This document shows, piece after piece, positions 254 through 54,872 of a stretch of 64,000 nucleotides of DNA. The stretch lies in NCBI RefSeq assembly GCF_006345805.1, contig NC_043009.1, positions 42,098,001 to 42,162,000 on the forward strand, in the 5' to 3' direction. Source of the stretch: Octopus sinensis (taxonomy: Eukaryota). The position numbers and the translations under genes are program-made. The notes under the pieces were generated by a model. That model had not been told where the DNA came from and ran no database searches. It worked only from the letters and a program-made list of their open reading frames with translations. Every line of letters starts with the position of its first letter. Within the stretch, counting starts at the first letter, position 1.

Positions 254-1105
254 CATATATATATATATATACACATATATATATATACATACATATATAC
301 ATATATATACATATATATACATTTATATACATATATATATATAAGTAAGGAAAAATCTTTTTAAAAATGCAGAATGCTCAAATGAAAGAAAATTTTAATA
401 AAATGAGAAAATGATAAAATATATAAATATATTTTATTCAACCGGTTTTCGTCATTGTATGACTTGTCAAGAATATTTATGTTTTAAGAAGTTATTTTAA
501 AAATTAGAAAGGGGAAAAAAAGAAAATTGCATTGTTTTTTGTAAAAGAATAATGATAAAAATGTACAAAAATTAAAAAATAAGTTCTCCGATACTTGTGA
601 GTTCGTTGTGTATCTTGAGTTTTATGGTTGTTTACCAAAAAATCACCTTGAGGTGTTAAGATCCAAAGGGATTAAGAGCATGTGATGTGTTGTGTTGTTA
701 AATTCAGCATGTTGCAGGACAGGAAGTAGTAGTAATTGTGGTCCTGATTCTTCAGTTCCTGTGTTGTCGGTAAGGGGAGACAACTCTTTTGAGTTCTTCA
801 ATAAAACCCAAATTATAAAACTATCATTTTAGCTTCATTTGCATTATCTTTTTTATATATAATTGCTTGTTAACTTAACTTTCAGATTTTAACACTTTAT
901 TTATATTATTTTCTAATTAATAAATCTGCATAGACAATTGCATTTCAAATTGTCATATCATTTATAATAAAAATGATAGTAATAACAACAATAGTAAAAT
1001 GATATTTAAAGAATATAAGTTTTAGCTTGAAGTGATGAATGCATGGTATCTTTATATATTGTGTTAGTCCATCCATGAAGAGTGAGGTAGAGAAAGGAAG
1101 TTTGA

Positions 1106-1458
1106 TCAACGAGGAGTTTGCATATTAAGTTGTGTTTGGAATTTTTCAATAAAGAGATTCTCCTTGTTATTCTCTCCTGTGTGGTGATCCCGTCTTTACT
1201 TGGTAGAAGGGGAATATATAGAATTTGGGGTTTAAGTCTTTAGCACATGAGTCTAAGTGGTCACTCAGTGGAATTTGTCGGTATTCCGGGAGATTTATTT
1301 ATTCTTATGCACCGTTACTCGTTTACGTAACGGGAGACTCGTTTGTCCAACATAATTATGTTGGCAACCAGCGCATGTGAGAACGTAGATAAGGTTCTCG
1401 GAGGAACAGGAGAAGTTAGTCTTGATTTTAAACTTCGTACCTTGTTTGAAGGTAAATT
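1106..1458 (-). pseudogene. GIY-YIG endonuclease C-terminal remnant of a PLE (Neptune/Poseidon-type with CxxC insert), frameshifted
   Basis: Manual minus-strand translation gives EFTFKQGTKFKIKTNFSCSSENLIYVLTCAGCQHNYVGQTSLPLRKRVTVHK...PEYRQIPLSDHLDSC...FYIFPFYQ...QERINKENLFIEKFQTQLN. This shows the LIY/YVG motifs, CxxC, two His, and the catalytic R, E and LN positions. Confidence 0.88.
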
Positions 1459-2162
1459 CAGGAGAGAATTAACAAGGAGAATCTCTTTATTGAAAAATTC
1501 CAAACACAACTTAATATGCAAACTCCTCGTTGATCAAACTTCCTTTCTCTACCTCACTCTTCATGGATGGACTAACACAAATATATAAAGATACCATGCA
1601 TTCATCACTTCAAGCTAAAACTTATATTCTTTAAATATCATTTTTACTATTGTTGTTATTACTATCATTTTTATTATAAATGATATGACAATTTGAAATG
1701 CAATTGTCTATGCAGATTTATATTATTAGAAAATAATATAAATAAAGTGTTAAAATCTGAAAGTTAAGTTAACAAGCAATTTATAAAAAAGATAATGCAA
1801 ATGAAGCTAAAATGATAGTTTTATAATTTGGGTTTTATTGAAGAACTCAAAAGAGTTGTCTCCCCTTACCCACAACACAGGAACTGAAGAACCAGGACCA
1901 CAATTACTACTACTTCCTGTCCTGCAACATGCTGATTTAACAACACAACACATCACATGCTCTTAATCCCTTTGGATCTTAACACCTCAAGGTAATTTTT
2001 TGGTAAACAACCATAAAACTCAAGATACACAACGAACTCACAATGTATCGGAGAACTTATTTTTTAATTTTTGTACATTTTTATCATTATTCTTTTACAA
2101 AAAACAATGCAATTTTCTTTTTTTCCCCTTTCTAATTTTTAAAATAACTTCTTAAAACAAAA

Positions 2163-2203
2163 TATTCTTGACAAGTCATACAATGACGAAAACCGGTTGA
2201 ATA
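2163..2203 (+). ncRNA. Minimal type I hammerhead-ribozyme-like motif (C3U/G8A-type variant); mirror copy at 435-475 (-)
   Basis: TATTC-TTGACAA-GTCA-tacaa-TGAC-GAAA-accggtt-GAATA: stem I, core variant, stem II, palindromic stem III. There is one extra A relative to the canonical spacing. Confidence 0.55.
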
Positions 2204-2483
2204 AATATATTTATATATTTTATCATTTTCTCATTTTATTAAAATTTTCTTTCATTTGAGCATTCTGCATTTTTAAGATTTTTCCTTACTTATCATTTCT
2301 CCACGTGCGGTCAACACAACCCCACCATTAATTGATCTATAATATATATATATATATATATATACATATATATATTGGCCTGCTCGCTTAGCCAGCGGGG
2401 TGGCATCATTTGAAGGCTAAAACAATGCGAACACATTGTGACCAGCGATGTGTAACATCTGATGATCTGGTCGGTCACGTGAT

Positions 2484-2537
<54 letters not shown>

Positions 2538-2814
2538 AGGTCTAATGCTCTTAGGTTAGACTTTTTGGGGGATAACCAGATCGAATCATACCAAGTGTAA
2601 CTGGCTTCTCGTACTTTGCCTGTTCTAATTGTTGTTTCTCTTGTCCGCCTTTGTGTCGTCTATCTGTCCGAACGTTTTAATGCACTCTTTTGCGTTTTCG
2701 TTCCATTTATATATATATATATAATATATGTATGTGGTGTGTGTGGTTGAACGAGTTCCGAGTGTCTGTTACTTTGTGTAAGGTAAACGATGCAATTAAT
2801 TTCATACCATATTA

Positions 2815-3200
2815 GAAGGAAGCACTCCGTCGGTTACGACGATGAGGGTTCCGGTTGATCCGAATCAACGGAACAGCCTGCTCGTGAAATTAACGTGTAT
2901 GTGGCTGAGCACTCCACAGACACGTGCACCCTTAACGTAGTTCTCGGGGATATTCAGCGTGACACAGAGAGTGACAAGGCCGGCCCCTTGAAATACAGGT
3001 ACAACAGAAACAGGAAGTAAGAGTGAGAGAAAGTTGTGGTGAAAGAGTAGAGCAGGAATCACCACCATCCCTGCCGGAGCCTCGTGGAGCTTTAGGTGTT
3101 TTCGCTCAATAAACACTCACAACGCCTGGTCTGGAAATCGAAACCGCGATCATATGACCGCGAGTCCGCTGCCCTAACCACTGGGCCATTGCGCCTCCAC
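2815..3200 (-). mobile_element. tRNA-derived SINE, family C (tRNA-Arg-like head; possibly Octopus OR-type), full length with 13-bp TSD
   Basis: The head GGAGGCGCAATGGCCCAGTGGTTAGGGCAGCGGACTCGCGG...GGTTTCGATTTCC has A and B boxes. TSD tcataccatatta lies at 2802-2814 and 3201-3213. Homologous copies occur at 9931 and 63058. Confidence 0.85.
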
Positions 3201-5002: not shown

Positions 5003-5710
5003 TAATATGATACTTAACAAAAGGCAGTGAGCTGGCAGAATTGTTAGCAAGCCGGACAAAATGCTTAGCAACACTTCGTCCGTCTTTTATGATCTGAGTT
5101 CAAATTCTGCAGAAGTTGACTTTACCTTTCGGGATCAATAAAATAAGTGCCACTTGATCACAGGGGTCGATTTAATCTTCACATGGTCTTCCCCAAGCCT
5201 GCTAGCCATGTGCCAAAATTTGAAAATACCATGATACTTAGCAAACAAGGCAGCGAGCTGGAAGAGTCGTTAGTTTGCCGGGTAAAGGCGCCTAAGCGGC
5301 ATTCAGTTCTACTTTACGCTCTGTGTTCAAATTCAGTCGCGGTCGAATTTACATTTCCTCATTTCGGGGCCAATAAAATAAGTACCAGTTGAGCACTGGA
5401 GGGTCGATGAAATCGACTTAATCGCTCTCTAGAAATTTTTTGTCTGGTGCCAAAATTTGAAACCAATATGTTACTTGGCAAAGAGAGCAGTGAGCTGGCA
5501 GAATCGTTAGCATGCCGGACAAAATTCTGCGAAGCATTTTATCCGACTCTACGTTCTGAGTTCAAATTTGAGGTCGGCTTTACTTTTCCTCATTTCAGGG
5601 GCGACAAAATAAGTGCCAGTTGAACACTGGGATCGATGTAATTAATTCACCTCTCCTACCGAAACTGCTGGCCTTGTGCCAAAATTCGAAACCAATATGA
5701 TAATTACCAA
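5003..5710 (+). mobile_element. Three head-to-tail diverged SINE family B (B2 3' end) copies separated by a repeated ~18-bp spacer
   Basis: Heads ggcag(t/c)gagctgg start at ~5023, ~5249 and ~5486. Each unit ends gtgccaaaatt(t/c)gaaa. The spacer aatatgatactta(a/g)caaa-like occurs four times. Confidence 0.75.
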
Positions 5711-5786
5711 CATAGTTACAGATTAATATTTAAATTTAGCGTTTAAACAAAGAAAGGTAACAAACGATTGAACAGAAAACTTTTTT

Positions 5787-6017
5787 CCTTATTGCCCACA
5801 AGGGGCTAAACATAGAGGGGACAAACAAGGGCCGACTAAAGGATTAAGTCGATCGATTACATCGACTCCAGTGCGTAACTAGTACTTAATTTATCGACCC
5901 CGAAAGGATGAAAGGCAAAATCGACCTCGACGGAATTTGAACTCACAACGTAACGGCAGACGAAATAGGGATAAGCATTTCGCCCGGGGTGCTAACGTTT
6001 CTGCCAGCTCGCCGCTT
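5787..6017 (-). mobile_element. SINE family B (B1 3' end), full length
   Basis: Reverse complement reads gcggcgagctggcagaaacgttagc...gagttcaaattccg...gcctttcatcctttcggggtcgataaattaagtact...tttagccccttgtgggcaataa. Confidence 0.8.
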
Positions 6018-8254
6018 TAATTGTCCTTGAACAGAAACCTTATTCGAAGAGTATTTTGCTAAGGTGTGGCAAATTAAGTACCAGTTACGCACTGGGGTCG
6101 ATGCAATCGACTTAATCCTTTTGTCTGTCCTTGTTTGTCCCCTTTATGTTTAGCCCCTTGTCCCCACCACCGCATGATAACCAGTATTGATGTGTTTACG
6201 CCCGAATAATCTTGCGGTTCGGCAAAAAAGACCAGGTTTGAAAAGGAAAACTAAAATAATGATAATATGTAATAATTCGACAAAAAAGTCTTCAAGGTGT
6301 TGCTCCGGCATGGCCGCGCTCTAATGATTGAAGCGAGTAAAAGATAAAAGTATTTACAAATGTGAGCAGTGATGTGAAATGTATGATCTGTAACGCAGCT
6401 GCTGTGATGTCATATCTCCTTGGCTATTACACGGTGCTAGTGGCGTCGTAGAACTATGTAGGTAGTTGAACTGTGTAGAAAATATCTGGAGACTTAAGTG
6501 ATTGACTTCAGCCTGACACCAGCATGAATTACTAACCATTTATTCTGCTTCAGAAGAAGAAGAAGAAGAAAACTATTTATTTGTTTCTCCCTCACCCTGC
6601 ATCCCCTCTTTTTTATTCTTTAAAAAAAAAAATGTGGTTAATTAGCAAAAACTCTTCTTTTGCTTCAGTTTGTAAGAACAATTAGATGCACTTAGACTAA
6701 CTGCTTGACTTTTGACCTGGTTTTGCTTCAAAGAGGAAATGAAAGTACAAAAATTGGTTCAAAATGTCCTGTAAGTGGTAAGTGGTACTGCTATTATCAC
6801 TTAAAACTTGCTACGAATGAATAAATATTGATTTCTCCGTGACTGTGTTGTAAAGATCTTGACATTGTTACGAAGTCGGTTCGTTCACAGCATGAAACAT
6901 GTCCGTAATTAAATCAACTCTAAACACACAAGCTGGTGAAATACAGAAATGTCTCCGTTGACTGTTGTAGGATTCTTAAGTTAACTACTTGAACAATACA
7001 TAAGTTTCATTTGTTTGTTGTTATTCTAGTTGTTGTGGTTGTTTTTATTGTTGATGTGTTTAAATTTCTCCTTAAAATTTCTCCTTACACCCCGCACTCA
7101 CCGTAACTTCACTAAAACAATCAGGAAATAAGGTTAAGCTCTACAAGAGGGAACCAAATGACTCACAGACCTCACTATTAGAAGAAATGACCGAATTCTT
7201 TAGCCAGTTGTTTATTTCTCTTTTTATTATTTCTTACAATTTCTCATTCATTTTATTTTATTTTATTTTTTTGTGAAGATTCATTGAGGTTTCACGCTGA
7301 AACGGATGTCAATGAAACTGTTCCATTCTGGAATCTAGTCATCTGTCAATGATTTGTTTTGTAGTGCAGCAGCGAATTGATAAATTGTGTTGTTGAAAAA
7401 TCACAGCGGCTGTGACTGCTTCTGATAACGATTCTACTGCAGCTGCTTACATAACAAGAATTTCAGTTAAAACTGAGAATCGAAATTAAGTAGCAGATTT
7501 CATTGCATCCAATAATAACTCTTGTCTTTAATCTTTCACTTGTTTCAGTCATCAGACTGCGGTCAGTAGTTCTCCTTTAAAGTCTATTTATTCTGTCGTC
7601 TCTTTTTGACGAACCGCTACGTTGCGGGGACATAAACAAACCAGCACCGGTTGTCAAGCAGTGGTGCAACACATTCGCAGGAAAAAAAAAATTTTTAATT
7701 GGTTAAATCGTTCCCACTATATTACAGGTATTTTTTTTTTCGCCTCAAGTAGTGTGAAAGGTTAAGATAACCGTGGTGAGTTTGTGAGCTCAGATTGTAT
7801 GGAAACTTCTTTAGATACTGGGGAGTAAATGCGTTTTATCTAACGCTCCACCGATTCAGATATTCAGTTTCTAACAATAAGAATATTTATTCCTGACTTC
7901 GACACAAGTGCTTAAATTTATGAGAATGAGTCCAATAGATATCAACTCGATAATGATGAAAAGTAAAATCAACATCGGCCGAATCTGAATTCGGAATATC
8001 GCATTAACAGTTCTGCCAATCCAAAACTCTAAACAAAAACCTTGATTTCAAATTTAGCGCAAAACCAGCAATTGAGGATGCGGTGAGTCGATTACATCGA
8101 TCCCAGTGCTCAACGGGTACTTATTTTATCGACTTCGAAAGGATGAAAGCCAAAGTCGATCTCGACGGAATTTGTACTTCGAGCGTAAAAGCGACGAAAT
8201 GCAGCTGAGCATTTTGCCCAGTGTGCTAACTGTTCTGCCAGCCCGCAGCCTTAA

Positions 8255-8475
8255 CCCTTTAGTGTTCTCATTATTCTGCCAAAATGAATCCTTTTTTATC
8301 CACATTGCCTTGAACTAATTAGTCATTATCTTGGCGCTATGAGATTTTGATGAGGTAGCAGTTAATTTTTAAAACGATATTGTAGGGCTGTCGTGAGAGA
8401 CCAGATCTGGCCAATTTGAACATAAAACAGGTAGAATACTTTGGGCCGGATATGGCCGGTTTAAATGCTAAAGGG
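8255..8475. mobile_element. piggyBac-like MITE with TTAA target site duplication
   Basis: TTAA|CCCTTTAG ... CTAAAGGG|TTAA, with TTAA at 8251-8254 and 8476-8479. Confidence 0.75.
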
Positions 8476-8576
8476 TTAATCTAAGCTAAAATATTAAAAT
8501 ACTAAGACAAAAAAAAAGTGAATGCCATTAAAATTACAATATCAGAAAATTAAATTTAGCATAGATTCTCTATATT

Positions 8577-9375
8577 GTTTTCTACTCTAGGCACAAGGCC
8601 CGAAATTTTGGGGGAAGGGTGTCACTCGATTAAATCGACCCCTGTACGCTACTGGTACTTAATTTATTGACCCCGAAAGGATAAAAGGCAAAGTCGACCT
8701 CGGCGGAATTTGAACTCGGAACGTAAAGACAGACGAAATACCTATTTCTTTACTACTCATAAGGGGCTAAACACAGAGGAGACAAACAAGGACAGACAGA
8801 CGGATTAAGTCGATTACATCGACCCAAGTGTGTAACTGGTACTTAATTTATCGACTTCGAAAGGATGAAAGCAAAGTCGACCTTGGCGGAATTTGAACTC
8901 AGAACGTAGCGGCAGAGGAAATACCACGAAGCATTTCGCCCGCCGTGCTAACGTTTCTTATTTCTTTATTGCCTACAAAGGGCTAGACATAGAAGGTACA
9001 AACAAGGACAGACAAAGGGATTAAGTCGATTACATCGACCCCAGTGCGTAACTGGCACTTATTTAATCGACCCCGAAAGGATGAAAGGCAAAGTCGACCT
9101 CGGCGGAATTTGAACTCGGAACGTAGCGACAGACGAAATACCTATTTCTTTACTACCCACAAGGGGCTAAACACAGAGAGGACAAACAAGGATAGACAAA
9201 CGGATTAAGTCGATTACATCGACCCCAGTACGTATCTGGTACTTAATTTATCGTTCCCGAAAGGATGAAAGGCAAAGTCGACCTCGGCGGAATTTGAACT
9301 CAGAACGCAACGGCAGACGAAATACTGCTAAGCATTTCGCCCGACGTGCTAACGTTTCTGCCAGCTCGCCGCCTT
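8577..9375 (-). mobile_element. Tandem array of four SINE family B units (three B1 bodies plus a terminal B2 end)
   Basis: Repeated ~190-220 bp units. Junction aagaaatag|gtatttcgtctg occurs twice and aagaaata|agaaacgttagc once. Confidence 0.85.
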
Positions 9376-9430
9376 CATAGATATTCTCTATATTTTAAAC
9401 AAAGTACTCCAGACTATTTCATTCATTGAA

Positions 9431-9843
9431 CTCTTTTACTCTTTTACTCTTTTACTTGTTTCAATCATTTGACTGCGGCCATGCTGGAGCACCGCCTTTA
9501 GTCGAGCAAATCGAACCCGGGACTTATTCTTTGTAAGCCCAGTACTTATTCTATCGGTCTCTTTTGCCGAACCGCTAAGTGACGGGGACGTAAACACACC
9601 AGCATCGGTTGTCAAGCTAGGGGGACAAACACAGACATACAAACACATACACACACACTTATATATATATATATATACATATATACGACAGGCTTCTTTC
9701 AGTTTCCGTCTACCAAATCCACTCACAAGGCATTGGTCGGCCCGGGGCTATAGCAGAAGACACTTGCCCAAGATGTCACGCAGTGGAACTGAACCCGGAA
9801 CCATGTAGCTGGTTAGCAAGCTACTTACCACACAGCCACTCCT
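9431..9843 (-). mobile_element. tRNA-derived SINE family A, full length
   Basis: Head aggagtggctgtgtggtaag...gggttcagttcc, then cttgggcaagtgtc (CORE-like), an internal (TA)/(TG) tract, and tail ggtgctccagcatggccgcagtcaaatgattgaaac(aagagta)n. Confidence 0.85.
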
Positions 9844-9930
9844 TTCATTTTCTGAAATAAAAGAGTTGAACTGAGGACGATTTCCTTGACATTGCAAGCA
9901 GATGTTTCAAGCGCTTGCTCGTGAGTTGAA

Positions 9931-10463
9931 GTGAGGGCGCGTGGCTTAGTTGTAAAGGTATTCAGGTCACGATCGTAAGGTCGTGAGTTCGATTCTTGAT
10001 GGCGCGTTGTATCTTTGAGCACAATGCTTTATTCCACGTTGCTCCGATCCACTCAGCTGGCAAAAACAAACAAAAATATTACTACCTGTAAGTCAAAGGG
10101 CCAGCCTTGTCGCATTCTGTGAAGTGTACCTATTTCTTTACTAACCACAAGGGGCTAAACACAGAGAGAACAAACAAGGACACACACACGGATTAAGTTG
10201 ATTATATCGACCCTAGTGCGTAACTGGTACTTATTTAATCGACTCCGAAAGGATGAGAGTCAAAGTCAACCTCGGCGGAATTTGAACTGAGAACGTAACG
10301 GCAGACGATAAACGGCTACGCATTTCGCCCGGCGTGCTAACGTTTCTGCCAGCTCGTACCTGTCTAGTGGAGTGCCCCAGCCACTTGCACGTTAATTTCA
10401 CGAGCAGGCTGTTTCGTTGATTGGATCAACTGGAACCCACATCGTCGTAATCGACGGAGTGCC
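9931..10463 (+). mobile_element. SINE family C copy interrupted by an antisense family B1 SINE (10131-10356)
   Basis: The family C head and 3' body align with 2815-3200 on both sides of a B1 unit. Confidence 0.75.
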
Positions 10464-10570
10464 ACTTTATCATTATTATTATTATGTTGAAATAATGATG
10501 ATGACGACAACGACAATGATGATGACGACGACGACGACAATGATGATGATGAGGACGGTAACGATCAGCC

Positions 10571-11115
10571 AGGCGGCGAGCTGGCAGAATCATTAGCACG
10601 CCAGGCATGGTTAAAGGCATTTTGTCCGTCTGTACGTTTCGTGTTCAAATTCCGCCGAGTTGAAGTACCAGCTACGCACTGAGGTCGATGTAATCGACAA
10701 TCCCCTCTTCTCACAAATTTCAGGCCTTGTGTCCATAGTAGAAAGGATTATTATTATGTTGAAATGATGAGGGTGACGATGATGATGATGATGAGGACGA
10801 GGAAGAGGAGGAGGAGGAGGAGGAGGAAGACGACGACGACGACGATGACATTGATGATGATGATTATGATGACGATGATGATGATGATGACGACGCTAAT
10901 GTTCAGCTGGGTGGCGATCTGGCAGAATCGTTAGCACGCCGGGTAACATGCTTAGCGGCATTTCGTTGTTCTGTACGTTCTGAGTTCAAATTCCACCGAG
11001 GTCAACTCTGCCTTCCATCCTTTCGAGGGAGATAAATTAAATACCAGTGAAACACTAGGGTCAACTAGTCCCCTCCCACCAAATTTCAGGCCTTGTGCCT
11101 TTAGCAGAAAGGATT
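10571..11115 (+). mobile_element. Two SINE family B2 copies (10571-10750, 10909-11115) in tandem with a duplicated (GAT)/(GAC)-rich flank
   Basis: Both begin gg(c/t)ggcga(g/t)ctggcagaatc and end aaatttcaggccttgtg...agaaaggattatta. The flank attattatgttg(a/c)aat occurs three times. Confidence 0.7.
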
Positions 11116-11221
11116 ATTATGTTGCAATGAGTAATACCACAATTACGCTGCTCTTCTACTGACGAATGACAAAGCAACATAGTTTAAAGAAAGCCTATGT
11201 TGTTTATCAACCTATGTGCTT

Positions 11222-11432
11222 TTTATCTTTTATTCTTTCCAGTTACTGGACTGCGGTCATGCTGAGGCACTGTCCTGGAGAGTTTGGTCAAACAAATCTA
11301 CCCCAATATTTATTCTTAGGTATATCGGTTTCTTTTGCCGAACCGCTAGGTTAAGGGGACGTAAACAAAACAACACCAGTTGTCAAGTGGTGTCAGAGGA
11401 CAAAGACAAAATCAACAAACACACACATTCCC

Positions 11433-11473
<41 letters not shown>

Positions 11474-11601
11474 CCCACACACACACACACGCACATATAC
11501 ACACAAATATATGTATGTGTGTGTGCACGTGTGATTATGTATGCATATATACGGCACGCTTCTTTTAGTTTCTGTCTGTCAAATCTAGTCACAAGGCTTT
11601 G

Positions 11602-11635
<34 letters not shown>

Positions 11636-11822
11636 GTGCTTGTGTGTATGTATGCATGTATAAGCTACGCTTCTTTCAGTTTCTGTCAAACAAAACTACC
11701 CAAAAGGCTTTGGCCGGCCCGGAACTATAGTAAAAGACCTCTACCCCAGGTTCCACGCAATGGGACTGAACCCGAAAACATTTGGATGGAAAGCAAACTT
11801 CTTACCACACAGCCATGCTTGC
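11222..11822 (-). mobile_element. SINE family A, diverged, with internal partial duplication
   Basis: Family A tail and head motifs are present; the segment cgcttcttt(t/c)agtttctgtc...aaggctttggc occurs twice. Confidence 0.7.
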
Positions 11823-11971
11823 GCTGGATACAATGGATAATATGCTGAAAATAGTATCAGTCAACCAATGAATGTGTCATCTGTCCTAATTAGAATTTAT
11901 TATGGTTAATTATCTTAGATTCACTCATTTCATGTATAATGGTCGCTGCTGTGTTTATAAAATATACACAT

Positions 11972-12385
11972 AGGCGTAGGCGTAGGAGTGGCTGAGTGGT
12001 AAGTAGCTTGCTTACGAACCACATGGTTCCAGGTTCAGTCCCACTGCGTGGCACCTTGGGCAAGTGTCTTCTACTATATCCTCGGGCCGACCGAAGCCAT
12101 GTGAGTGGATTTGGTAGACGGAAACTGAAAGAAGCCCGTCGTATATATATATATGTATGTATGTGTGTGTATGTGTTTGTGTGTCTGTGTTTGTCTCCCA
12201 AAATCGCTTGACAACCGATGCTGGTGTGTTTACGTTCCCGTAAATTAGCGGTTCGGCAAAAGAGACGGATAGAATAAGTACTGGGCTTACAAAGAATAAG
12301 TCCTGGGATCGATTTGCTCGACTAAAGGCGGTACTCCAGCATGGCCACAGTCAAATGACTGAAGCAAGTAAAAGAGTAAAAGAGT
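11972..12385 (+). mobile_element. SINE family A, full length
   Basis: Runs from aggcgtaggagtggctgagtggtaag to gactgaagcaagtaaaagagtaaaagag. Confidence 0.85.
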
Positions 12386-12604
12386 ATATATTCTCCCGTG
12401 TGTGAGCATCAAATTTTCAGTTAATCAAGTCCTACTCGCGTTGGATAGTTGCAAATAAAAATATTTGTCCACAGTTTTTGCATTATTTGCACTTCACGCT
12501 AAGATCGAACTGGGAACAACAATGTTGTGAAGCCATCTTGTTAACCTCTGAACATACACATATTTTTTTTTAATTTCCATGCAAAGAATACCATATTTTC
12601 TATC

Positions 12605-15660: not shown

Positions 15661-16041
15661 AGAAGGTAGAAAATGCAAACAATTTTATCATGAAGAACAT
15701 TTTAGTACCGGTTCTAGACTTTGCGACTTCATCAACTTAGAGTAAACCATGTAAAGCCATTAAAATGTGGGAAAATTAAATGAAATGTTTCTTAAAAAAT
15801 TTCCATAGTTTTCAAATGCAAGGGACATTTTTCCTCCTTTCTGTTTGTCTCTGTCTCTATTTTACTCTTGTGGGTCCTTGAAACGTGCATCTGAAAACTA
15901 TGGAAACATTTTAAAACAACATTTCATTTAATTTTTCCACAATTGTTTTACCATGATTTACTCAAAGTTGAAAACGTCGCAAAGACTGAAACCAGTACTA
16001 AAATGTTCACATCATAAAATTATTTTAGCATTTTCTACCTT
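15661..16041. mobile_element. Fold-back element (diverged ~160-bp inverted arms), each arm with a degenerate hammerhead-like motif; probable PLE pseudo-LTR relic
   Basis: aggtagaaaatgc...tttccatagttttcaaatgca pairs with tgcatctgaaaactatggaaa...gcattttctacct. The two-arm consensus is AG-TTGATGA-AGTC-gcaaa-GACT-GAAA-CCGG-TA-CT. It is flanked by (TA)/(TG)n. Confidence 0.7.
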
Positions 16042-16043
16042 GT

Positions 16044-16133
<90 letters not shown>

Positions 16134-18859: not shown

Positions 18860-19050
18860 CTTCTGATAGAACGCTAACCACTATAAATTCTTTATTTTCT
18901 CTCTGTTTCTTTCTGTGTTCCTTTCTGTGGAAGAGCGTAGGCTCGAAACGTTAAAGGCTTTTTCACTACCCGAACGTTATACTAACACATCTGTCTGTTG
19001 TCTACATCACCTGTCTTCGTCTTTTGTTTTTTTGTTAATTCTCCCCCTAT
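18860..19050 (+). mobile_element. Short PLE pseudo-LTR-like element with a minimal hammerhead-like motif at 18921-18956
   Basis: CTTT-CTGTGGAA-GAGC-gtag-GCTC-GAAA-CG-TT-AAAG; ends at (TA)n; second copy at 53031-53220 (-). Confidence 0.65.
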
Positions 19051-22233: not shown

Positions 22234-22239
22234 GTACGT

Positions 22240-22620
22240 TTATATATTTGTTGTGCAAGATTTTTTTATATGAAGTCGTGTGTTGATGAACAGATATTGT
22301 TATATTTTGGAATGGTCATTTTGCCAGTTTAGCCAATAAAACACACGCACTATATATTTTGTGTTATTTTGCTTCAGTGTTATTTATTTTTTGCATTAAT
22401 CTTAATCTTATTTCGGCCAGAGTTCTTTCGTCACACTCCTGTGACCGCACCAGTGGTCCTTTGTTTCTTCTTTCTTATTGTGTCTCTCTTTACTAACCGT
22501 CAGCCATTTTGTATTTCTATTGTTATGTCTTCATTTGCGCATGCTTATATCCCTATGTGCGTCTACCAAATATATAGTGCGTGTGTTTTTATTGGCTAAA
22601 CTGGCAAAATGACCATTCCG

Positions 22621-22626
<6 letters not shown>
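22240..22626 (-). mobile_element. Fold-back element (58-bp arms 22302-22360 / 22568-22626) with a degenerate hammerhead-like motif at 22415-22459 (-); probable PLE relic
   Basis: ggaatggtcattttgccagtttagccaataaaa pairs with ttttattggctaaactggcaaaatgaccattcc. The minus strand reads CCA-CTGGTGC-g-GTCAC-aggagt-GTGAC-GAAA-gaac-TC-TGG. Flanked by (TA)n. Confidence 0.6.
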
Positions 22627-22655
<29 letters not shown>

Positions 22656-25666: not shown

Positions 25667-25941
25667 TAGAAGGTTTGGAGGTGATGTACAGATATTGTAT
25701 ATTAGAAAAAAATAAGGTACTCAGAAATCAGGATGGTTGTACATTTACAGATTTTTATTAATATGTCACATGATTTTTAAATCATACATTAGCGCTTGCA
25801 TCTACTCTAATATCAAATCTGAAGAATCTACTAGAGTAGATGCAAGCGCTAATACACGATTTATAAAAACATGTGACATATTAAAAAAAATCTGTAAATG
25901 TACAACCATCCAGATTTCTGAGTAATTTATTTATTCTAATA
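25667..25941. mobile_element. Fold-back element (110-bp arms 25700-25809 / 25832-25941) with a hammerhead-like motif at the fold (25817-25853); probable PLE relic
   Basis: The arms are reverse complements. The motif reads CTGAAGA-ATCTAC-taga-GTAGAT-GCAA-GCGC-TA. (TA)n lies on both sides. Confidence 0.7.
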
Positions 25942-25964
25942 TATATATATATATACAGGGAGAA

Positions 25965-30204: not shown

Positions 30205-30237
<33 letters not shown>

Positions 30238-30239
<2 letters not shown>

Positions 30240-30428
30240 TCTGTCTTCCCTCCCTGGGATCTTTCCTTCTCCTTGTTTCCGACGAAGAGCTCCGCTCGAA
30301 ACGTTAAACCCTCCTTCCCTTCTTTCCTGAGCATCAATAATACTTTAATTGTTCCACGTCCTGCGTTGCTGTGTTTTTTTCTCTTTTTTCTCTTTTTTTT
30401 CTGTGTTTTCTTGTTTGGATTAACTTTA
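30238..30428 (+). mobile_element. Short PLE pseudo-LTR-like element between (TA)n tracts with a minimal hammerhead motif at 30275-30309
   Basis: GTTT-CCGACGAA-GAGC-tcc-GCTC-GAAA-CG-TT-AAAC. Confidence 0.7.
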
Positions 30429-39979: not shown

Positions 39980-40153
39980 CATACATAGATACGACGGGCT
40001 TCTTTCAGTTTCCGTCTACCAAATCCACTCACAAGGCTTTGGTCAACCCGAGGCTATAGTAGAAGACGCTTGCCCAAGGTGCCACGCAGTGGGACTGAAC
40101 CCGGAAACATGTGGTTCGTAAGCAAGCTACTTACCACACAGCCACTCCTACGC
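39750..40153 (-). mobile_element. SINE family A, full length
   Basis: Head and tail motifs as at 9431-9843. Confidence 0.85.
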
Positions 40154-41279: not shown

Positions 41280-41700
41280 AGGAGTGGCTGTGTGGTAAGT
41301 ACCTTGCTTACCAACCACATGGTTCCAGGTTCAGTCTCATTGCGTGGCACCTTGGACAAGTGTCTTCTACTATAGCCACGGGCCGACCAAAGCCTTGTGA
41401 GTGGATTTGGTAGACGAAACTGAAAGAAGCCCGTCGTATATATGTATATGTATATGTATGTGTGTGTATATGCTTGTGTGTCTCTGCTTGTCCCTCCAGC
41501 ATCGCTTGACAACCGATGTTGGTGTGTTTATATGCCCGTAACTTAGCGGTTTGGCAAAAGAGACCGATAGACTAAGTACTAGGCTTACAAAGAATAAGTC
41601 CTGGGGTCGATTTGCTCGACTAAAGACGGTGCTCTAGCATGGCCACAGTCAAGTGCCTGAAACAAGCAAAAAAAAAAAAGAAAAGAAAAGAAAAGGAATA
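41280..41700 (+). mobile_element. SINE family A, full length
   Basis: Head and tail motifs as at 11972-12385. Confidence 0.85.
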
Positions 41701-42304
41701 AAAGTATAACGTGATGGAAGTGGATGAAATTTTGCCTATCTGAGGTATTTTGTAATCTAATGAAATCGAAGCAGACGGATAAATAAGAAATCTGAAATTA
41801 TATATTCTTGGAAGCAGACGAAAAAATTATTATTACCATCATGCAAGGTCCACAAAGTGTAAATTCGCTTGAAACTATTAAATAAGATGTTACATACCAA
41901 TCTATTTTCCTCCAGCGATCTTATTAATTTTTTTCTCTGCATGAAGAATTATACCCAAATAATCGCATTCATTAGCAAAGGCTCCTTACCAGAGCATACT
42001 GTAACTGTCCACTTGACCATTATCGATTTTCACAAATCGTTGGGGCACGTGTTCGCATTCAGCACTAACCAAAATGTTGTCATTGCTAATTTGTCATTTG
42101 AACGATCGCGTGTTCGAAACTACTCAGAGTAGCAAGTCAGCAGAGTTTTTTTCAAATGAATCCTACGAGTATTGTGCATTTTAACTTGTGCATGCTGTCA
42201 TCTCTCCCTTTGCAGAAGTCTTCCCACGCGCTATATATATTTTTAAATATTTTGTTTCTCTCTCTACCTTTTCTGCATTACTATTTCATCTTCGACTACG
42301 TTGT

Positions 42305-42660
42305 TTACTCTTTCACTCTTTTACTTGTTTCAGTTATTTGACGGCGGCCACGCTGGAGCACCATCTTTAGTCTAAGAAATCGACCCCAGGAAGTATTCTT
42401 TGTAAGCATAGTACTTATTCTATCGGACTCTTTTGCTGAACCGCCATGTTACGGGGAACGTAAGCACACCAACAACGCAGACACACACACATGCATGTAT
42501 ACGACGGACTTTCTTCAGTTTCCCTCTACCAAATCCACTCACAATGCTTTGGCCAGCTCGAGGCTATAGTAGAAGACACTTGCCCAAGATGCCACGCTGT
42601 AGGACTGAACCTGGAACCATGTGGTTGGAAAGCAAGCTTCTTAACAAACAGCCACGCCTG
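42305..42660 (-). mobile_element. SINE family A, diverged
   Basis: Family A motifs on the minus strand. Confidence 0.75.
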
Positions 42661-43156
42661 TTTGCTGTTTTTCCTTCATTTCTTTTTGTTTCTTTTTTGT
42701 GCAGAATGACAACACTAAGGCATTAGTGCCATGTTTTCTCCAGGGAAAATTTATCGGCTCAGCGTACGATAATAAAACCTCAGATTTTATACCTAACCTT
42801 TATTTTCCACTTATTATTTTTTATAACTTGCACCAACTTTGTAACTTGTTCTTTGTAATTGTAGATATTTTTCTCAACTACTAAACCGTTTTCTTTGCCG
42901 ATTTTCCCCTCTTTCGTCTACCACATTCACATCCTACTCAAATCCAGCTAACCACCAGCACCCTACACCCCCTTCACACAACAGTGTCCACCATGAGACA
43001 CCTATTGGCAGTGGTACACTTACACCAATATTCTCTTACATTAGCACACAATATCAGGCTTCTAACACTCTTATTAACCATTCCCCATGGAGTTATATGC
43101 TTAGCCGAACACTAAGCTGTCTTTGTTTTTCGGTCCACCACCGTTCTTCCTTTCTC

Positions 43157-43193
43157 TTTTCTGATGAAGGATTTAATGTCCGAAACGTCAAAA
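43157..43193 (+). ncRNA. Minimal type I hammerhead ribozyme motif with an intact core
   Basis: TTTT-CTGATGA-A-GGAT-ttaat-GTCC-GAAA-CG-TC-AAAA: canonical CUGAUGA and GAAA with a GUC cleavage triplet. Confidence 0.72.
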
Positions 43194-43303
43194 ACTATTT
43201 TCCCTTTTCTGCTCAAAGCGTTGTGAAAACTTATTCCCCTTGAAATTTTCTTCATATTTTCATTGTTGTTCATTCATCACACACACACACAACACACACA
43301 CAC

Positions 43304-46265: not shown

Positions 46266-47169
46266 GTTGCACACGTTACACACACACACACACGCAGATT
46301 TCCCTTTCTGCACTCACATAATAATCGCAAGCATAATCGCACCATATGATTGCGGCAGACGTGCCTCCGCAAAAATTAAGACAGATACACACATAGACAT
46401 TCATCACCCACACACACACACACACACACACACATGTATATAATATATATATATACTTGTGTGTGTGTGTATGTGCGTGTATATATGTGTGTGTGTGTGT
46501 TTGTGCATAATTATACTGATACATTTATATTGACATAAACAAAGTGAAGCCGATAGTCATGGTGTAATCATATACAAATACACTTGCATACTCTGATGCG
46601 CATATATACACCCAATATACACATACATACTCCCGCAACACACATATTTATGTATGTACCGCTTGAGTTTATATATATATATAAATAGGCCTGTGCTCGT
46701 GTGTGTGAGGAGAGCGTGTATGTATACATGTATACATGTGTGTACGAGGTTTGTACATGGGTTATCCCGAAAGTAAACAAAAGTGGACACAACTAATGCT
46801 ATAAGGTCGTTTAAACTGCACATATTGGGAACTTTTCCTTTATAGCAATATTCCTCTTCTTCTCTGTTCTAGAGAAATAATGGGTTACAAGTAGAAGCAA
46901 CATGAAATCATAAAATGGTGCAGGTTGGTCGACTTTAACAAAAAGCAACTGGTTGCTTATGAAGATGACATTATTGTCATTGTGCAATCAGATACAAATA
47001 CACTTGCACACACGAGCACATACTTAATTACGTATATATATACTCAAGCCGTACATACGTAAATATGTGTAATGGGGGCGTACGTATGTATATTGTGCGT
47101 ATATATGCGCATCAGAGTATGCAAGTGTATTTGTATATGATAACACCATAACAATATTGTCAATGTGCT

Positions 47170-48112
47170 ACACAAATGGATGAAGTGGTTTAAAGAAGGA
47201 TAAAACCAGCATCGAAGAAGGCATAAAACGAATTGAAAGACCGTTAACTTTGACCACTTATACGAATCGTCAGCAAGGTGACGAACTGATTTACGCAGAC
47301 AGACGAGTAACATTCAGTAAGTTTGCTTCAACGTTGGGCCGTGCTCAATATGCTCTACATAATGTTTTCGAAGTCTTGGTGTATCATAAAATTTGTACAA
47401 AGTGTGTATTTTATATCCCGAAGGAGTTAAAGGTGGAATTTTGTTCAGATCTGCAGGAAAAGTTTGAAGCCAAAGAAAGCCAGAGAAGACACATTTGTTG
47501 GGGGTTCTCTTTCCTCTTTTTCGGAAAATTGGTTCAATCTGTAGAATGATGTCACATCTCTTCTCCGTGGCCTAAGATGTTAAAGAGCTAGCGATCGACA
47601 CAGAAAATTTTGGTGATTGATTTGCTGAGCAAAAGAGCGTCATTCTTCTTGATTTTCTGGAACGTGGCTGTATCTCGAACAGCGAGCGTACACTGAAACA
47701 CACAACAAACTTAAAGAGGAGGAGATAAAAAATCTTACGAGAAATTGTTCAAACAAATATCATGATCACAAACATCTTTGTCAACAAATCAGCCAATCGA
47801 CAAACTCAGCTGATCAATGGTCTTCCAACCATCTAACAACTTGGATGTAGGAGCCTCTAGATTCCTTCTGCTCGGTCCAATGCAGGACAAACTTCAAGAA
47901 CAATATTTTTATGGCACGAGGAGAAGTGAAAGCGTCTGTAAAGAAGTGGGTGCAACAGTGCAGACCTAAGAAGATGCGAGAGTTTCGTTCAAGGAAGAAA
48001 CAGAGGGAGACTACTTTGGGTAATACATTTGTATGTAAAAAAAGTTTGAACGATCTATGTCAGTTAATAAAAATGTGTACCCAGTTTCGTATTATTTTCG
48101 AGGCAGACCTTG
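47170..48112 (+). pseudogene. Degenerate mariner transposase remnant
   Basis: Eroded HPPYSPDLAPSDF.LFG-like motif at ~47820-47890, followed by EVKASVKKWVQQ; IYADRRVT...LVYHKICTKCV lies upstream. Confidence 0.5.
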
Positions 48113-49459: not shown

Positions 49460-49935
49460 TAATCAGGGGTTCTTCAGAGAATAAGCCCCCACCTTTAAGC
49501 AGGTGTTTCAGCCCTTAACTCCTTACCCTCATAAGCCCGGTCAGTAAGCAGTTCATTGATACCTACATAATCTTCCGCTGTCGTATTCTTTGCCACTGTC
49601 TATAATGTAACCCTCCTGGATTTTAAGGTGCCTTAGAATCAAGGTACCTTTATGTTGTAACTAATTCATTCGAGATGCCAGTTTGTTGTAAGGTAAATTA
49701 TGCCTTCTGAAATTCGCCCCCATTTCTGTTTGTGCAGCTCCAGTTGCAACTTTTCTCAGCTACTTCTGCCATAGCTTTAGGAGCTCCGATTCTCTTGCTT
49801 CCAGAAATCGAGGGATGGTTCATGAGATCATTGGCACATTTGCCCACAACCCCTCTCGTTCCCACCTCTATGGTGTGGACTTTGATTTGGAAGCCAGATT
49901 TTCTCAGTGGGACAACTAAACCGCCATATTTTTCA
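49460..49935 (-). mobile_element. HERO-like (RLE-bearing) non-LTR retrotransposon 3' fragment
   Basis: EKYGGLV..LRKSGF.....IEVGTRGVVG.....AMAEVAEKSCNW matches the KY..L / EVG.RG / AE.AS.W pattern at the end of the restriction-like endonuclease domain. Confidence 0.6.
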
Positions 49936-51330
49936 GTCATGTATATGTGGGTTTCGTCCAATAGCAGTTCAAAGAAAGAAGAAGAAGTGTAAATGTTCAT
50001 GATTGGTCAACTACTTAAAAACGATTATAAATTAGTTTATGTAGTCTCGTTCGTCATGATTAATTAATCACTGGTGATTCGGGATAGTACAGCACGCTCA
50101 ACAGTGAAAGCGAATTACATTTATCATGGATTGATCTGTGATAATACGGATCGGTTATCAGTCGTAGATTCTTCTTATACCGAATAAAAGCACCCCACTG
50201 ACCAACCATATTTTCTCAGCTACGTAGAATGCAATGACTATCGCTTGAGTTTACATGTCTGAACTACGAGGTTATATGTTTTTTTATACGGATCTAGGTA
50301 ATCGTAGCCATCAATATTGAACCGCTGAACAGAAAAGTATGAAGGCGCTTGATTCTATCAATCGACGGACGCGAAGGTATTCTCTACAGAAAAAGATACA
50401 GATGATCCAGAAAATACGCGATGTTGGAATCTTCGTAGCTGTAGGTCGTGAATTTGATGCCAATGAATCTATTTATCCTTCGTCCCACTTAACAGCGTGC
50501 ATGGAGATGATTACTTTATCGCTGATTCATTTATCACTGTAATAAACGAACTAAACTTCGTGATAAACGAAGACACCTGTATTTGTTAAACGGATACTGA
50601 TAAAACACGATTGCCTAATAGTGATTGCTAAATAGCAATTGTTCAGTAGTGGTTGTTACATAGTTTTATGAACGATTCCTGATAGAGTGATTGCTAGATC
50701 GGTCTTGAGGAACGCAATAAACAACGATTGTTAAGTACAGGATTGTTAAATAGTGCTAGAGTACCTCGTTAGTCATAGCTAAATATTGATTGTTAAATAG
50801 TGTATAACGAGCGAACTTATATCATACATTCTTCATTTCCTTTTATAACTGTGTGTTTACGTAGAACTTCAATTTACAGAGACGTAAATACACAGATACA
50901 CACACACATACTCGTGCACACTCGCATCATTAACTTCTGTAAAGAACTAACACATTGCAACATTACATGCAAAAGCTTGTCTATGTGTATAATAATGCGT
51001 GTGTGTAACTGTGTGTGCGTGTATATGAATGTTTGTGTGTGTGTCTGTGTGTGTGTATATAAATATATTTTGCGACAAAATTCTATAACAGGAAATTGAT
51101 TGAGTCAGACAAAATTTAGCTAAAGTGTACACACACTTATACATATATTTATTCTTATATATTTGGGTGCGTATATGCATGCATATATGTATGTATACAA
51201 GGAAATACACGCATATATATGTATGCGTGTGTATATATGTGTGTGTGTGTGTATGTATATTTACCTGCTGCGCGTGAGAACCAACGATAGTGAGCCTAGA
51301 TTTTATGATTGCAATGTTATAAGTACTGTG

Positions 51331-53030: not shown

Positions 53031-53035
<5 letters not shown>

Positions 53036-53220
53036 GGGAGAATTTACAAAAAACAAAAGACGAAGACAGGTGGTGTAGATAACGAACAGATATATTAGTA
53101 TAACGCTCGGAAAGTGAAAAAGTCTTTAACGTTTCGAGCCTACGTTCTTCCACAGAAAGGAACACAGAAAGAAACGAGAGGAAATAAAGAATGTGTAGTG
53201 GCTAGCGATCTGTCATGATC
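53031..53220 (-). mobile_element. Second copy of the 18860-19050 hammerhead-bearing element (motif 53124-53159)
   Basis: Reverse complement contains ctttctgtggaagaacgtaggctcgaaacgttaaag, and the flanks align. Confidence 0.7.
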
Positions 53221-53410
53221 TATACACACACATCACACACATTATATAGATATATATATATAATATATATTATAATATAATATATTATATGTATATATAT
53301 ATATACATGCACGTATGTATGTATTTATGTACGTATATCAATAATTGCATACGTATATAAGTGCATATTATTAGTAACAAATACATATACATATATGCAC
53401 ATTATATATG

Positions 53411-53454
<44 letters not shown>

Positions 53455-53475
53455 CTTATATATATAATATATATA

Positions 53476-53514
<39 letters not shown>

Positions 53515-53537
53515 TATATATATATAATATTATTATA

Positions 53538-53568
<31 letters not shown>

Positions 53569-54872
53569 TCTATACAATATGTTACATTACTCGGTAGTCA
53601 AGATAAAACTCTGAGTTTCAGATGCCGAAGTTGAAATCCACAACACCATCTCTTCGGTTATCTGGCTATTTGAAAACGTTATGAAAAAATACCGTTAAAA
53701 ATGAAGGGAAATTACTCTGTTATAACTCTGCTTTGCCTGCGTACTTATAATCGCATCGCTCGCATTTTTCGTCATAAAAATTATATAAAATACATAAAAA
53801 ATATTAAAAATATATAAAAATATATAAAATCTTCTTGGGACATAACACAGAAAGCATGTCTATCCGTTTTCTTTAGGGACCAAAAACGTAACAGAAATAG
53901 TTTAGTCACATGTGGGCATGATCCGAAAAGCTCTGTCCTTGTATTTAGACATGTGGTAGGGTCTAAGCTGCTTTCCAGATAAGCCATCTCTCCATGTCGC
54001 ATAAACCGCACCTTCCGCTGCCGTTAGTATAGGGCTTACATCTGGCCAAAATCTTCCATTGTATGTTATAATCGACAACCTTTATCTCTTAAAGACCAAT
54101 ATGATTGGATAATTGTGTCGCTTTTCTTTGTTTCCAGTGCCTAAAGCTCAAAGTGTGGTTATTGAACCTGGCTTGAAATTACCCTCTGTCAGGGTAATTT
54201 CAAGGCCAGGTTCAATAACCACACTTTGAGCTTTAGGCACTGGAACAAAAGAAAAGCGACACAATTATCCAATCATATTTGTCTTTAAGAGATAAAGGTG
54301 TCGATTATAACATACAATGGAAATTTGGCCAGAATGTAAGCCCTATACTAACGGCAGCGGAAGGTGCGGTTTATGCGACATGGAGAGATGGCTTATCTGG
54401 AAAAGCAGCTTAGACCCTACCACATGTCTAAATACAAGGACAGAGCTTTTCGGATCATGCCCACATGTGACTAAATTTCTGTTACGTTTTTGGTCCCCTA
54501 AAGAAACGGATAGAACATGCTTTCTGTGTTATGTCCCAAGAAATTTTTTATATATTTTTATATATTTTTATATATTTTTATGTATTTTTATATAATTTTT
54601 ATGACGAAAAATGCGAGCGATGTATAAGTACGCAGGCAAGCAGAGTTTAACAGAGTAATTTCCCTTCATTTTTAACGGTATTTTTTCATAACGTTTTCAA
54701 ATAGCCAGATAACCGAAGAGATGGTGTTGTGGATTTCCACTTCGGCATCTGAAACTCAGAGTTTTATCTTGACTACCGAGTAATGTAACATATTGTATAG
54801 ATAAATTTCCTCTATTTACATAATATTGAGGTCTCTTCTTTCTTTGTTATCTTATTACTTACCGTTTTATCA
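53569..54872. mobile_element. Penelope-like element, 5'-truncated, near-perfect palindrome (arms 53569-54185 / 54191-54801, 5-nt spacer, ~70-bp 3' tail), in (TA)n
   Basis: Both arms encode a GIY-YIG C-terminal half: TEGNFKARFNNHTLSFRH...TQLSNHIWSLRDK...WKILARCKPYTNGSGRCGLCDMERWLI...CLNTRTELFGSCPHVTKFLL (stitched across 1-bp indels; tentatively Nematis-like). Hammerhead-like motif at 54708-54768 and mirror 53602-53662. Confidence 0.88.
54708..54768 (+). ncRNA. Type I hammerhead-like motif with extended stem II
   Basis: GATAA-CCGAAGA-GATG...CATC-t-GAAA-CTCaGAG-TT-TTATC; stem I gataa/ttatc. Confidence 0.55.

What the first reader, a model, noticed from the sequence alone, without database searches (positions are those of the whole stretch)
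341..54872. A family-spanning set of (TA)n-embedded, hammerhead-bearing fold-back Penelope-like elements
Seen: five independent fold-back elements of unrelated sequence (341-2338, 15661-16041, 22240-22626, 25667-25941, 53569-54872) and four non-folded short pieces (18860, 30238, ~43100, 53031). All abut (TA)n or (CA)n tracts and each carries a minimal hammerhead-like motif, about 12 motifs counting mirror copies. Established: PLEs carry minimal type I hammerheads with palindromic stem III in their pseudo-LTRs and can form inverted pLTRs. Inference: this genome hosts several microsatellite-targeting PLE lineages plus non-autonomous ~200-400 bp hammerhead 'mini-foldbacks' that may be mobilised in trans, resembling retrozymes or MITEs. 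I do not know of this being described for cephalopods.
Basis: partly seen in the sequence, partly recalled or inferred. Interest (0 to 1): 0.75.

Follow-up and report, generated by a model that had tools for sequence, protein, structure and literature searches.

The report
Penelope retrotransposon stumps with hammerhead ribozymes
Eight of these nine repeats are cut-short ends of ordinary Penelope-type jumping genes that sit in TA repeats, often head to head, and not a new mini-element class; elsewhere in this genome U6 RNA is joined exactly at the predicted ribozyme cut site of three of the lineages, which likely means these weak ribozymes do cut in living cells.

Summary
All five fold-backs and about 12 hammerhead-like motifs are real. 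Eight of the nine pieces run colinearly, in other copies, into GIY-YIG (mostly RT + GIY-YIG) coding sequence of seven Penelope-like (PLE) families: one Hydra family and six with a CCHH-type nuclease. Their 3' ends are fixed at (TA)n (288 of 328; background 5%), their 5' ends are ragged, and 51 of 52 fold-back junctions differ, so they are not MITE- or retrozyme-like units. This layout is published, including a hammerhead-bearing, (TA)n-targeting Hydra element from Octopus. Extras: 55 of 59 fold-backs pair one tailed with one tail-less arm; one family breaks off preferentially inside its hammerhead; five of eight families have a non-consensus core. U6 snRNA is joined at the first base after the predicted cut in three lineages (6 + 1 + 1 loci; the six may share one source), a likely fossil of cleavage in vivo. 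This scan noted the same stumps and U6 joints before, on other DNA. Verdict: new members of a known kind; the U6 joints are the part worth pursuing.

The parts
341..1461 (-). E1 long arm: 5'-truncated 3' end of a young RT + GIY-YIG PLE with CX4CX2C linker and CCHH nuclease; tail-less end at 341
   Evidence: 98% identical to family copies that continue into a 782-aa frame
1109..1459 (-). C-terminal GIY-YIG coding remnant (frameshifted); this is the 'spacer' of the fold-back
   Evidence: tblastn E 8e-35; maps colinearly to the family
1459..2338 (+). E1 short arm with 45-nt tail (2294-2338); hammerhead core at 2168 (U3-A8 pair, extra A after GAAA); mirror motif at 470 on minus
15663..16048 (.). 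E2: old fold-back (arms 15663-15878 minus, 15886-16048 plus) of a degenerate PLE related to E1; hammerhead core at 15968 (U3-A8, 2-bp helix I); both ends eroded
   Evidence: 85-88% family; copies L108 and L120 reach linker and GIY-YIG
22237..22627 (.). E3: tailed arm 22237-22565 (minus, hammerhead core at 22453, family core A9C) plus 63-nt tail-less arm without hammerhead
   Evidence: L142 and L164 reach RT thumb and GIY-YIG
25667..25947 (.). E4: tailed arm 25667-25812 (minus) joined inside the hammerhead to tail-less arm 25813-25947 (plus, core at 25819, GCAA in place of GAAA)
   Evidence: L319 reaches RT + GIY-YIG, 58% to E1
53569..54876 (.). E5: Hydra-clade fold-back; tail-less arm 53569-54193 (minus), tailed arm 54191-54876 (plus); hammerhead cores at 53657 and 54713 (U4C); nuclease remnants 53865-54187 and 54178-54508
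18864..19045 (+). solo 5'-truncated 3' end, same family as 53031; hammerhead core at 18925 (A6U)
53035..53217 (-). solo 5'-truncated 3' end; decayed A6U hammerhead at about 53124-53159
   Evidence: family of 3133 candidates; L200 reaches a CCHH GIY-YIG frame
30237..30425 (+). solo 5'-truncated 3' end; hammerhead core at 30279 (U4C)
   Evidence: 2195 candidates; L308 and L311 colinear through a 2.6-kb CA-rich UTR into RT + GIY-YIG
43135..43275 (+). old solo piece with a consensus minimal hammerhead (core at 43161); 5' limit uncertain; not linked to a coding frame
   Evidence: 16 relatives at 73-85%; tblastn on 17 loci empty

Best explanation
Eight of the nine pieces are 5'-truncated 3' ends of seven endonuclease-bearing Penelope-like retrotransposon families that sit in (TA)n tracts, and each fold-back likely forms anew at insertion, when two copies started from the element's 3' end are joined head to head. 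Shown: fixed 3' ends at (TA)n, ragged 5' ends, colinearity with coding frames, one tailed plus one tail-less arm, unique junctions, either arm the longer. Inferred: the RT-nuclease nicks both strands of a TA tract, primes one cDNA at the distal start site (with tail) and one at the proximal site (without), both stop early, and host end-joining fuses the stumps; both arms likely come from one RNA or its cDNA, because a rare U6 joint is present in both arms of the same insertion. The hammerhead rides along because it lies close to the 3' end; it likely cleaves a fraction of transcripts in vivo but is not needed for insertion, since most copies read through it.
For: Coding links; Pfam RVT_1 E 1.1e-7 on the E1 frame. 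3' ends next to (TA)3 in 288 of 328 distinct arms against 5.4% of random positions. Fold-back lengths 183 to about 5900 nt. Tailed + tail-less in 55 of 59 scoreable pairs; tailed arm longer in 18, tail-less in 22, within 10 nt in 10 of 50. 51 of 52 junctions distinct; by the BLAST ends 23 overlap, 20 have inserted bases, 8 are blunt (counted). Partial tandems exist (L092, L096, L101). Contig depth of run X15 falls about 50-100-fold from the 3' to the 5' end of E1, with TA loose ends at both 3' termini (a poor copy measure). Two RT start sites defining the tail and extension of both strands are shown in vitro for an anole PLE (PMC11167929). U6 joints at the predicted cut.
Against: The 43100 piece has no coding link. 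Pfam GIY-YIG scores are below the cut-off and RVT_1 was not found on the E5 frame; assignments rest on motifs. 4 of 59 pairs break the tail rule. Copies examined are the top 30-40 hits per query, biased to young and long copies. 5' ends are not uniform: E4 clusters in the hammerhead (11 of 25) and 53031 near 190 nt. No U6 joint by exact pattern for E1, E3, E5 or 53031. TA-flanked copies starting at the 30238 cut site (9) are not clearly above two control positions (5 and 0). The six E2-lineage U6 loci share derived letters and may stem from one event. The two-priming step itself was not observed.
Confidence: 0.88

Rival explanations
1. The 200-400 bp fold-backs are non-autonomous units (MITE- or retrozyme-like) that are transcribed and re-inserted whole in trans.
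For: E4 fold-backs cluster at 213-299 nt; the 53031 family has several 5' ends near 190 nt; U6-headed copies of the E2 lineage share an odd U6 duplication in two loci with different flanks.
Against: 12 of 12 E4 junctions and 51 of 52 overall differ; the one repeat (L335/L336) shares its flanks. Families continue into coding frames. No arm among 540 alignments at >=80% identity (duplicates included) shows A-to-G hyper-editing, which a re-copied hairpin RNA might carry.
Confidence: 0.06
2. The second arm is made by snap-back of the first cDNA on itself, and the nuclease then trims the tail from the returning strand.
For: U6 joints in both arms of single insertions need one template (L481, L427, L480, L482, L483). 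Some E4 junctions are centred on the helix II palindrome (L174/L330, L172/L346). Craig et al. ascribe the tail to nuclease resolution.
Against: A snap-back arm cannot extend further 5' than the strand it copies, yet either arm is the longer about equally often (18 versus 22 of 50), and the longer arm's extra part is ordinary upstream element sequence.
Confidence: 0.15
3. The palindromes are assembly artefacts or later rearrangements, and the motifs are chance.
For: Long-read assemblies can create palindromes (own knowledge); monomer folds are not better than shuffles (z -0.1 to -1.8).
Against: Arms differ by up to about 20% and by a family-specific tail; both 3' termini appear in contigs of another run; motifs sit at a fixed place in each family and exceed shuffles.
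Confidence: 0.02

Closest known systems
Insertion units of EN+ Penelope-like elements (pLTR, inverted 5'-truncated copy, one-sided tail; Craig et al. 2021, PMC8557442)
   Same: 5' truncation, partial tandems, inverted copy, tail at one end, (TA)n bias, hammerhead near the 3' end.
   Different: New families; tails here measure about 30-70 nt; the tail rule is counted (55 of 59).
Hydra clade, Hydra-1_Obim of Octopus bimaculoides (PMC8557442 text and supplement)
   Same: E5 has RWK, DKT, CxCX5C, CxxC and CxH, no CCHH, about 2.6 kb, (TA)n; 39 of 64 residues match Hydra-1_Obim in one RT stretch compared by eye; helix III equals that listed for Penelope-3_HM.
   Different: A different family; core U4C; at least 1689 candidates against the few copies noted for Hydra-1_Obim.
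Minimal type I hammerheads of metazoan PLEs (Cervera and De la Pena 2014, PMC4209133)
   Same: Short palindromic helix III, extra base before helix II in several families, U3-A8 variant, opposite-strand pairs 100-700 bp apart.
   Different: Five of eight families carry a near-fixed change at an invariant position (U4C twice, A6U, A9C, A13C).
U6/LINE-1 chimeric pseudogenes (Moldovan et al. 2019, PMC6789731)
   Same: U6 3' end with 4-5 T joined to a 5'-truncated retroelement RNA and retrotransposed.
   Different: The joint is at one defined base, the predicted ribozyme cut, which would supply the 5'-OH itself; the carrier is a PLE; products are often fold-backs.
Non-LTR retrozymes (bioRxiv 10.64898/2026.07.22.740005)
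   Same: Short hammerhead-bearing sequences derived from PLE pLTRs.
   Different: Retrozymes are head-to-tail tandem arrays; these are solo or inverted stumps with unique junctions.

Membership tests
EN+ Penelope-like elements | RT followed by C-terminal GIY-YIG in family copies | tested here: met
   E1, E3, E4, E5, 30238 have both in one copy, E2 as degenerate sequence, 53031 the nuclease only; 43100 no link
EN+ Penelope-like elements | partial tandem pLTRs, 5' truncation, inverted copy, tail | tested here: met
EN+ Penelope-like elements | RT phylogeny with reference PLEs | not tested
   reference proteins were only readable in a supplement, not loadable
Hydra clade (E5) | RWK and DKT motifs, CxCX5C linker, no CCHH, CxxC and CxH, under 3 kb, (TA)n | tested here: met
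   (41 of 46 ends at TA)
Hydra clade (E5) | canonical hammerhead | tested here: inconclusive
   architecture matches the listed Hydra motifs but core is U4C in >=90% of 29 copies
Neptune or Nematis clades (E1-E4, 30238, 53031) | CX2-5CxxC linker plus CCHH nuclease | tested here: met
   linker seen in E1, E2, E3, E4, 30238; 53031 copy truncated before the linker
Neptune or Nematis clades (E1-E4, 30238, 53031) | tree position separating Neptune from Nematis | not tested
   'Neptune-like' is a motif-level label only
Minimal type I hammerhead | consensus core C3 U4 G5 A6 N7 G8 A9, G12 A13 A14 A15, U16 H17 (list from PMC3088659) | tested here: not met
   met in 43100; documented U3-A8 pair in E1 (plus an extra A) and E2; not met in E3, E4, E5, 30238, 53031/18860
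Minimal type I hammerhead | helices I and II paired, short self-complementary helix III | tested here: met
   helices pair with different sequences in all eight families; helix I only 2 bp in E2 and E4; helix III not palindromic in E3; no formal covariation statistic run
Minimal type I hammerhead | self-cleavage | not testable with these tools
   indirect support from U6 joints in three lineages
Non-LTR retrozyme | head-to-tail tandem of two or more hammerhead units | tested here: not met
   none in the window; only isolated two-copy tandems among loci (L368, L256)
Non-LTR retrozyme | circular RNA | not testable with these tools
   only contigs available
MITE-like non-autonomous unit | fixed boundaries and repeated identical units in new flanks | tested here: not met
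   51 of 52 junctions distinct

The most novel reading that the evidence does not exclude
Minimal PLE hammerheads, including cores that break the consensus (U4C, A13C) or have a 2-bp helix I, cut their RNA in living octopus cells; the cut 3' piece is joined to U6 and retrotransposed; both arms of a fold-back are copied from one RNA using the two start sites that define the tail; and one U6-headed piece of the 15661 lineage has itself spread as a small non-autonomous element.
Probability: 0.5. Interest if true: 0.7.

Novelty: new member of a known kind. Interest (0 to 1): 0.42.

Why it matters
The fold-backs themselves matter mainly for annotation: they are PLE stumps and should not be called MITEs, retrozymes or miRNA hairpins. 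Two side results touch open questions. Whether PLE hammerheads cleave in vivo is unsettled (weak activity in vitro, no RNA-seq ends at the cut in the anole study); U6 joints at the exact predicted base give a genomic record and name the variants to assay. How inverted PLE insertions form is also unsettled; near-obligate tailed/tail-less pairing, either arm longer, and one rare joint in both arms constrain the mechanism.

Tried and rejected
First descriptor was mis-indexed and found nothing; replaced. Rfam cmscan gave only microsatellite-driven miRNA matches among the rows shown. Single-strand folding of eight motifs was not better than shuffles and did not give the hammerhead fold, as expected for motifs without a stable helix III. 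ARAGORN found no tRNA in the window. Sequencing runs: no RNA holder listed on record; contigs of three runs guessed to be RNA cover 16-28 of 30 bins of an E1 copy, which shows neither strand nor ends. A cut-site hot spot for TA-flanked 30238 copies was inconclusive because the site is also a TA microhomology. The planned 1-Mb random sample stopped at 400 kb, so genome-wide density is rough: 6 motifs against 0 in one shuffle and 10 family hits. Dropped before the 55-of-59 count: two ambiguous E4 pairs (L322, L352), three E5 pairs cut by the locus edge (L062, L067, L071), duplicate loci, mis-paired neighbours, and five rows of the 30238 and 53031 families, for which I defined no tail; scoring was by hand. 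Eight of 60 loci gave no junction. No tree was built. A Pfam scan of the partial frames of E3, E4 and 30238 failed on my coordinates and was not repeated.
Full report
Observation. The window lies in G000:C13, a 2.7-Gb microsatellite-rich animal genome, probably an octopus (inferred from the likeness of E5 to Hydra-1_Obim). Self-BLAST confirms the five fold-backs, called E1 (341), E2 (15661), E3 (22240), E4 (25667) and E5 (53569), and shows that 18860 and 53031 are one family. Hammerhead-like motifs exceed shuffles: 3 strict hits against about 0.06 per 64 kb, 10 relaxed hits against 0-1 (descriptor tuned afterwards); with two decayed copies the count is 12.

Families. Each piece was searched in G000. 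Candidates of the first look (not copy numbers): E1 1456, E5 1689, E2 1751, E3 1043, E4 1352, 30238 2195, 53031 3133, 43100 17; 17-40 candidates per search were scored and 17-30 fetched. The 3' ends are fixed, with two alternative positions (tailed and tail-less) in E1-E5, and lie next to (TA)3 in 288 of 328 distinct arms against 5.4% of random positions. The 5' ends vary: with queries that stop short of the hammerhead, 30238 copies end between 116 and over 900 nt and E4 copies between 131 and over 600 nt; 53031 copies found in the flanks of other loci end between 65 and 805 nt.

Link to coding elements. E1 continues into a 782-residue frame with RVT_1 (E 1.1e-7) and a weak GIY-YIG match, lying between 1084-nt direct repeats in L092; the window's 'spacer' 1180-1458 is nuclease-coding sequence of the longer arm. 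E5 continues into a 2.6-kb element with every Hydra motif listed by Craig et al.. E2 (L108, L120), E3 (L142, L164), E4 (L319), 30238 (L308, L311) and 53031 (L200) also reach nuclease or RT + nuclease sequence. E1, E2 and E4 form one group (49-58% in the nuclease), 30238 and 53031 another (53%). Only 43100, old and divergent, has no link.

Fold-back anatomy. Lengths run from 183 to about 5900 nt. 55 of 59 scoreable pairs have one tailed and one tail-less arm (binomial p 8e-13 against one half); either arm may be the longer (18, 22, 10 ties of 50). 52 junctions were located in 60 loci; 51 are distinct, and the repeated one (L335/L336, 20 kb apart) shares its flanks. By BLAST ends, 23 overlap by 1-16 nt, 20 carry inserted bases, some visibly templated, and 8 are blunt, as in microhomology-type end joining (inference; BLAST inflates overlaps). 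So the mini-foldbacks are made one by one. E4 explains why they look like a family: 11 of 25 insertions stop within a 21-nt stretch covering the 5' half of the hammerhead (p about 2e-6 against a constant-hazard null, a rough model), each at a different base; RT stalling at the 6-bp helix II is the likely cause (inferred).

Hammerheads. Family majorities over 16-29 copies: 43100 consensus; E1 and E2 U3-A8, a documented covariant; E5 and 30238 U4C; 53031/18860 A6U; E3 A9C; E4 A13C. A sister subfamily of 30238 keeps U4. U4C is reported to lower activity in vitro yet suffice for a viroid in vivo (PMC3088659). In the anole PLE the hammerhead needs the protein and is dispensable for insertion in vitro, which fits the many copies here that read through the site.

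U6 joints (outside the window, same lineages). L380, a 30238 copy, is a U6 snRNA (Rfam E 3e-28) ending in five T followed by the first base after the predicted cut; 1-2 T could come from either side. Of 13 dispersed U6 copies fetched (17 further loci were a tandem U6 array), 2 are joined to PLE ends (L380 itself, the query, and L427), 9 to the starts of abundant SINE-like repeats, 2 to neither. An exact pattern for the E2 cut gave 20 matches: 7 matches at 6 loci are E2-lineage ends, 12 SINE-like starts, 1 unrelated. With the gap left free (0-30 nt), 4 of 4 matches are at the cut. One E4 locus has the joint at offset 0 with no microhomology. E1, E3, E5 and 53031 gave none, and no second 30238 joint was among 40 scored hits. 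Against over-reading: the six E2-lineage loci share derived letters, and L427 and L480 share an odd duplication at the U6 5' end with different flanks and junctions, so they may descend from one chimeric source; the minimum is three events. RtcB ligation of U6 cyclic phosphate to a 5'-OH end is shown for L1 (PMC6789731); a template jump at the RNA's 5' end would also fit, notably for the SINE-like cases. Either way the joint marks an RNA 5' end at the cut. Five of these loci are fold-backs with U6 in both arms, including the E4 locus that was the only exact match in the genome, so both arms likely derive from one RNA or its cDNA.

What is known. PMC8557442 (passages, section 11, supplement rows and part 2 of 59 seen) describes inverted 5'-truncated copies, one-sided tails, (TA)n bias and Hydra-1_Obim with its hammerhead. 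PMC4209133 (parts 1-2 of 4) describes minimal hammerheads and opposite-strand pairs. PMC11167929 (parts 1-2 of 4) gives the two RT start sites. bioRxiv 10.64898/2026.07.22.740005 (part 1 of 5 and passages; its supplements not seen) defines retrozymes as tandem derivatives of pLTRs. PMC13282606 (passages) lists 31 recently active Penelope-like families and one U-type SINE family in Octopus vulgaris without mentioning ribozymes; its supplements, not read, might hold these families or the U6-headed element. PMC3088659: passages. PMC6789731: abstract and first part of the discussion. Searches for hammerhead + octopus, Penelope + tail + twin priming and U6 + hammerhead + Penelope (0 papers) found no account of the tail pairing rule or of U6 joints at PLE hammerheads in the held library; subscription papers and Repbase reports are not covered. 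Earlier notes of this scan report the same stumps in this and other genomes and U6 joints in other genomes; I saw L380 before reading them.

Verdict. Interest rests on the side results.

Noticed in passing
L380 (1385-1494), L427, L463, L465, L466, L469, L470, L479: U6 snRNA 3' end joined at the first base after the predicted hammerhead cut of the 30238, 15661 and 25667 lineages; five are fold-backs with U6 in both arms.
   Followed up: yes
L427 and L480 (G000:C3, 360 kb apart): Two U6-headed fold-backs share a duplicated U6 5' segment but differ in flanks, junction and which arm has the tail: possibly a U6-headed non-autonomous PLE derivative.
   Followed up: partly
L424, L426, L428-L432, L434, L435, and 12 of L461-L478: U6 3' ends joined to the 5' starts of several abundant SINE-like repeats.
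   Followed up: no
L436-L452 (G000:C1 about 141.93-141.96 Mb): Tandem array of more than 20 U6 copies spaced 1.1-1.4 kb.
   Followed up: no
window 28051-28182: Tailed 3' end of a Hydra subfamily related to E5, broken inside helix II.
   Followed up: partly
window 46553-46705 and 47007-47155: Another imperfect inverted repeat (86% over 153 nt) around about 300 nt of other sequence; no hammerhead by my descriptors.
   Followed up: no
L308 and L311: The 30238 family has a 2.6-kb CA-rich 3' UTR between coding frame and hammerhead, which hides its link to the ORF; E4 has roughly 180-nt internal repeats in its 3' UTR.
   Followed up: partly
window 5021-12386, 22845-24183, 39751-42660, 61523-62549: Many 180-400 nt dispersed SINE-like repeats, some in inverted pairs and one 184-nt tandem (8959-9325).
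   Followed up: no
window 55359-57767, 47184-47546, 27396-27725, 49701-50006: Short frames that look like remnants of LINE and Tc1/mariner-type elements (label by eye, recalled).
   Followed up: no
L092 4160-5352 (minus), L091 3061-4128: The E1 element has about 1.1 kb of proline/histidine-rich coding sequence upstream of the RT frame, in a different frame in these copies; no Pfam match.
   Followed up: partly
window 15663-16048: E2 arms show 10 T>C against 2 A>G changes on one strand, a weak hint of RNA editing.
   Followed up: partly
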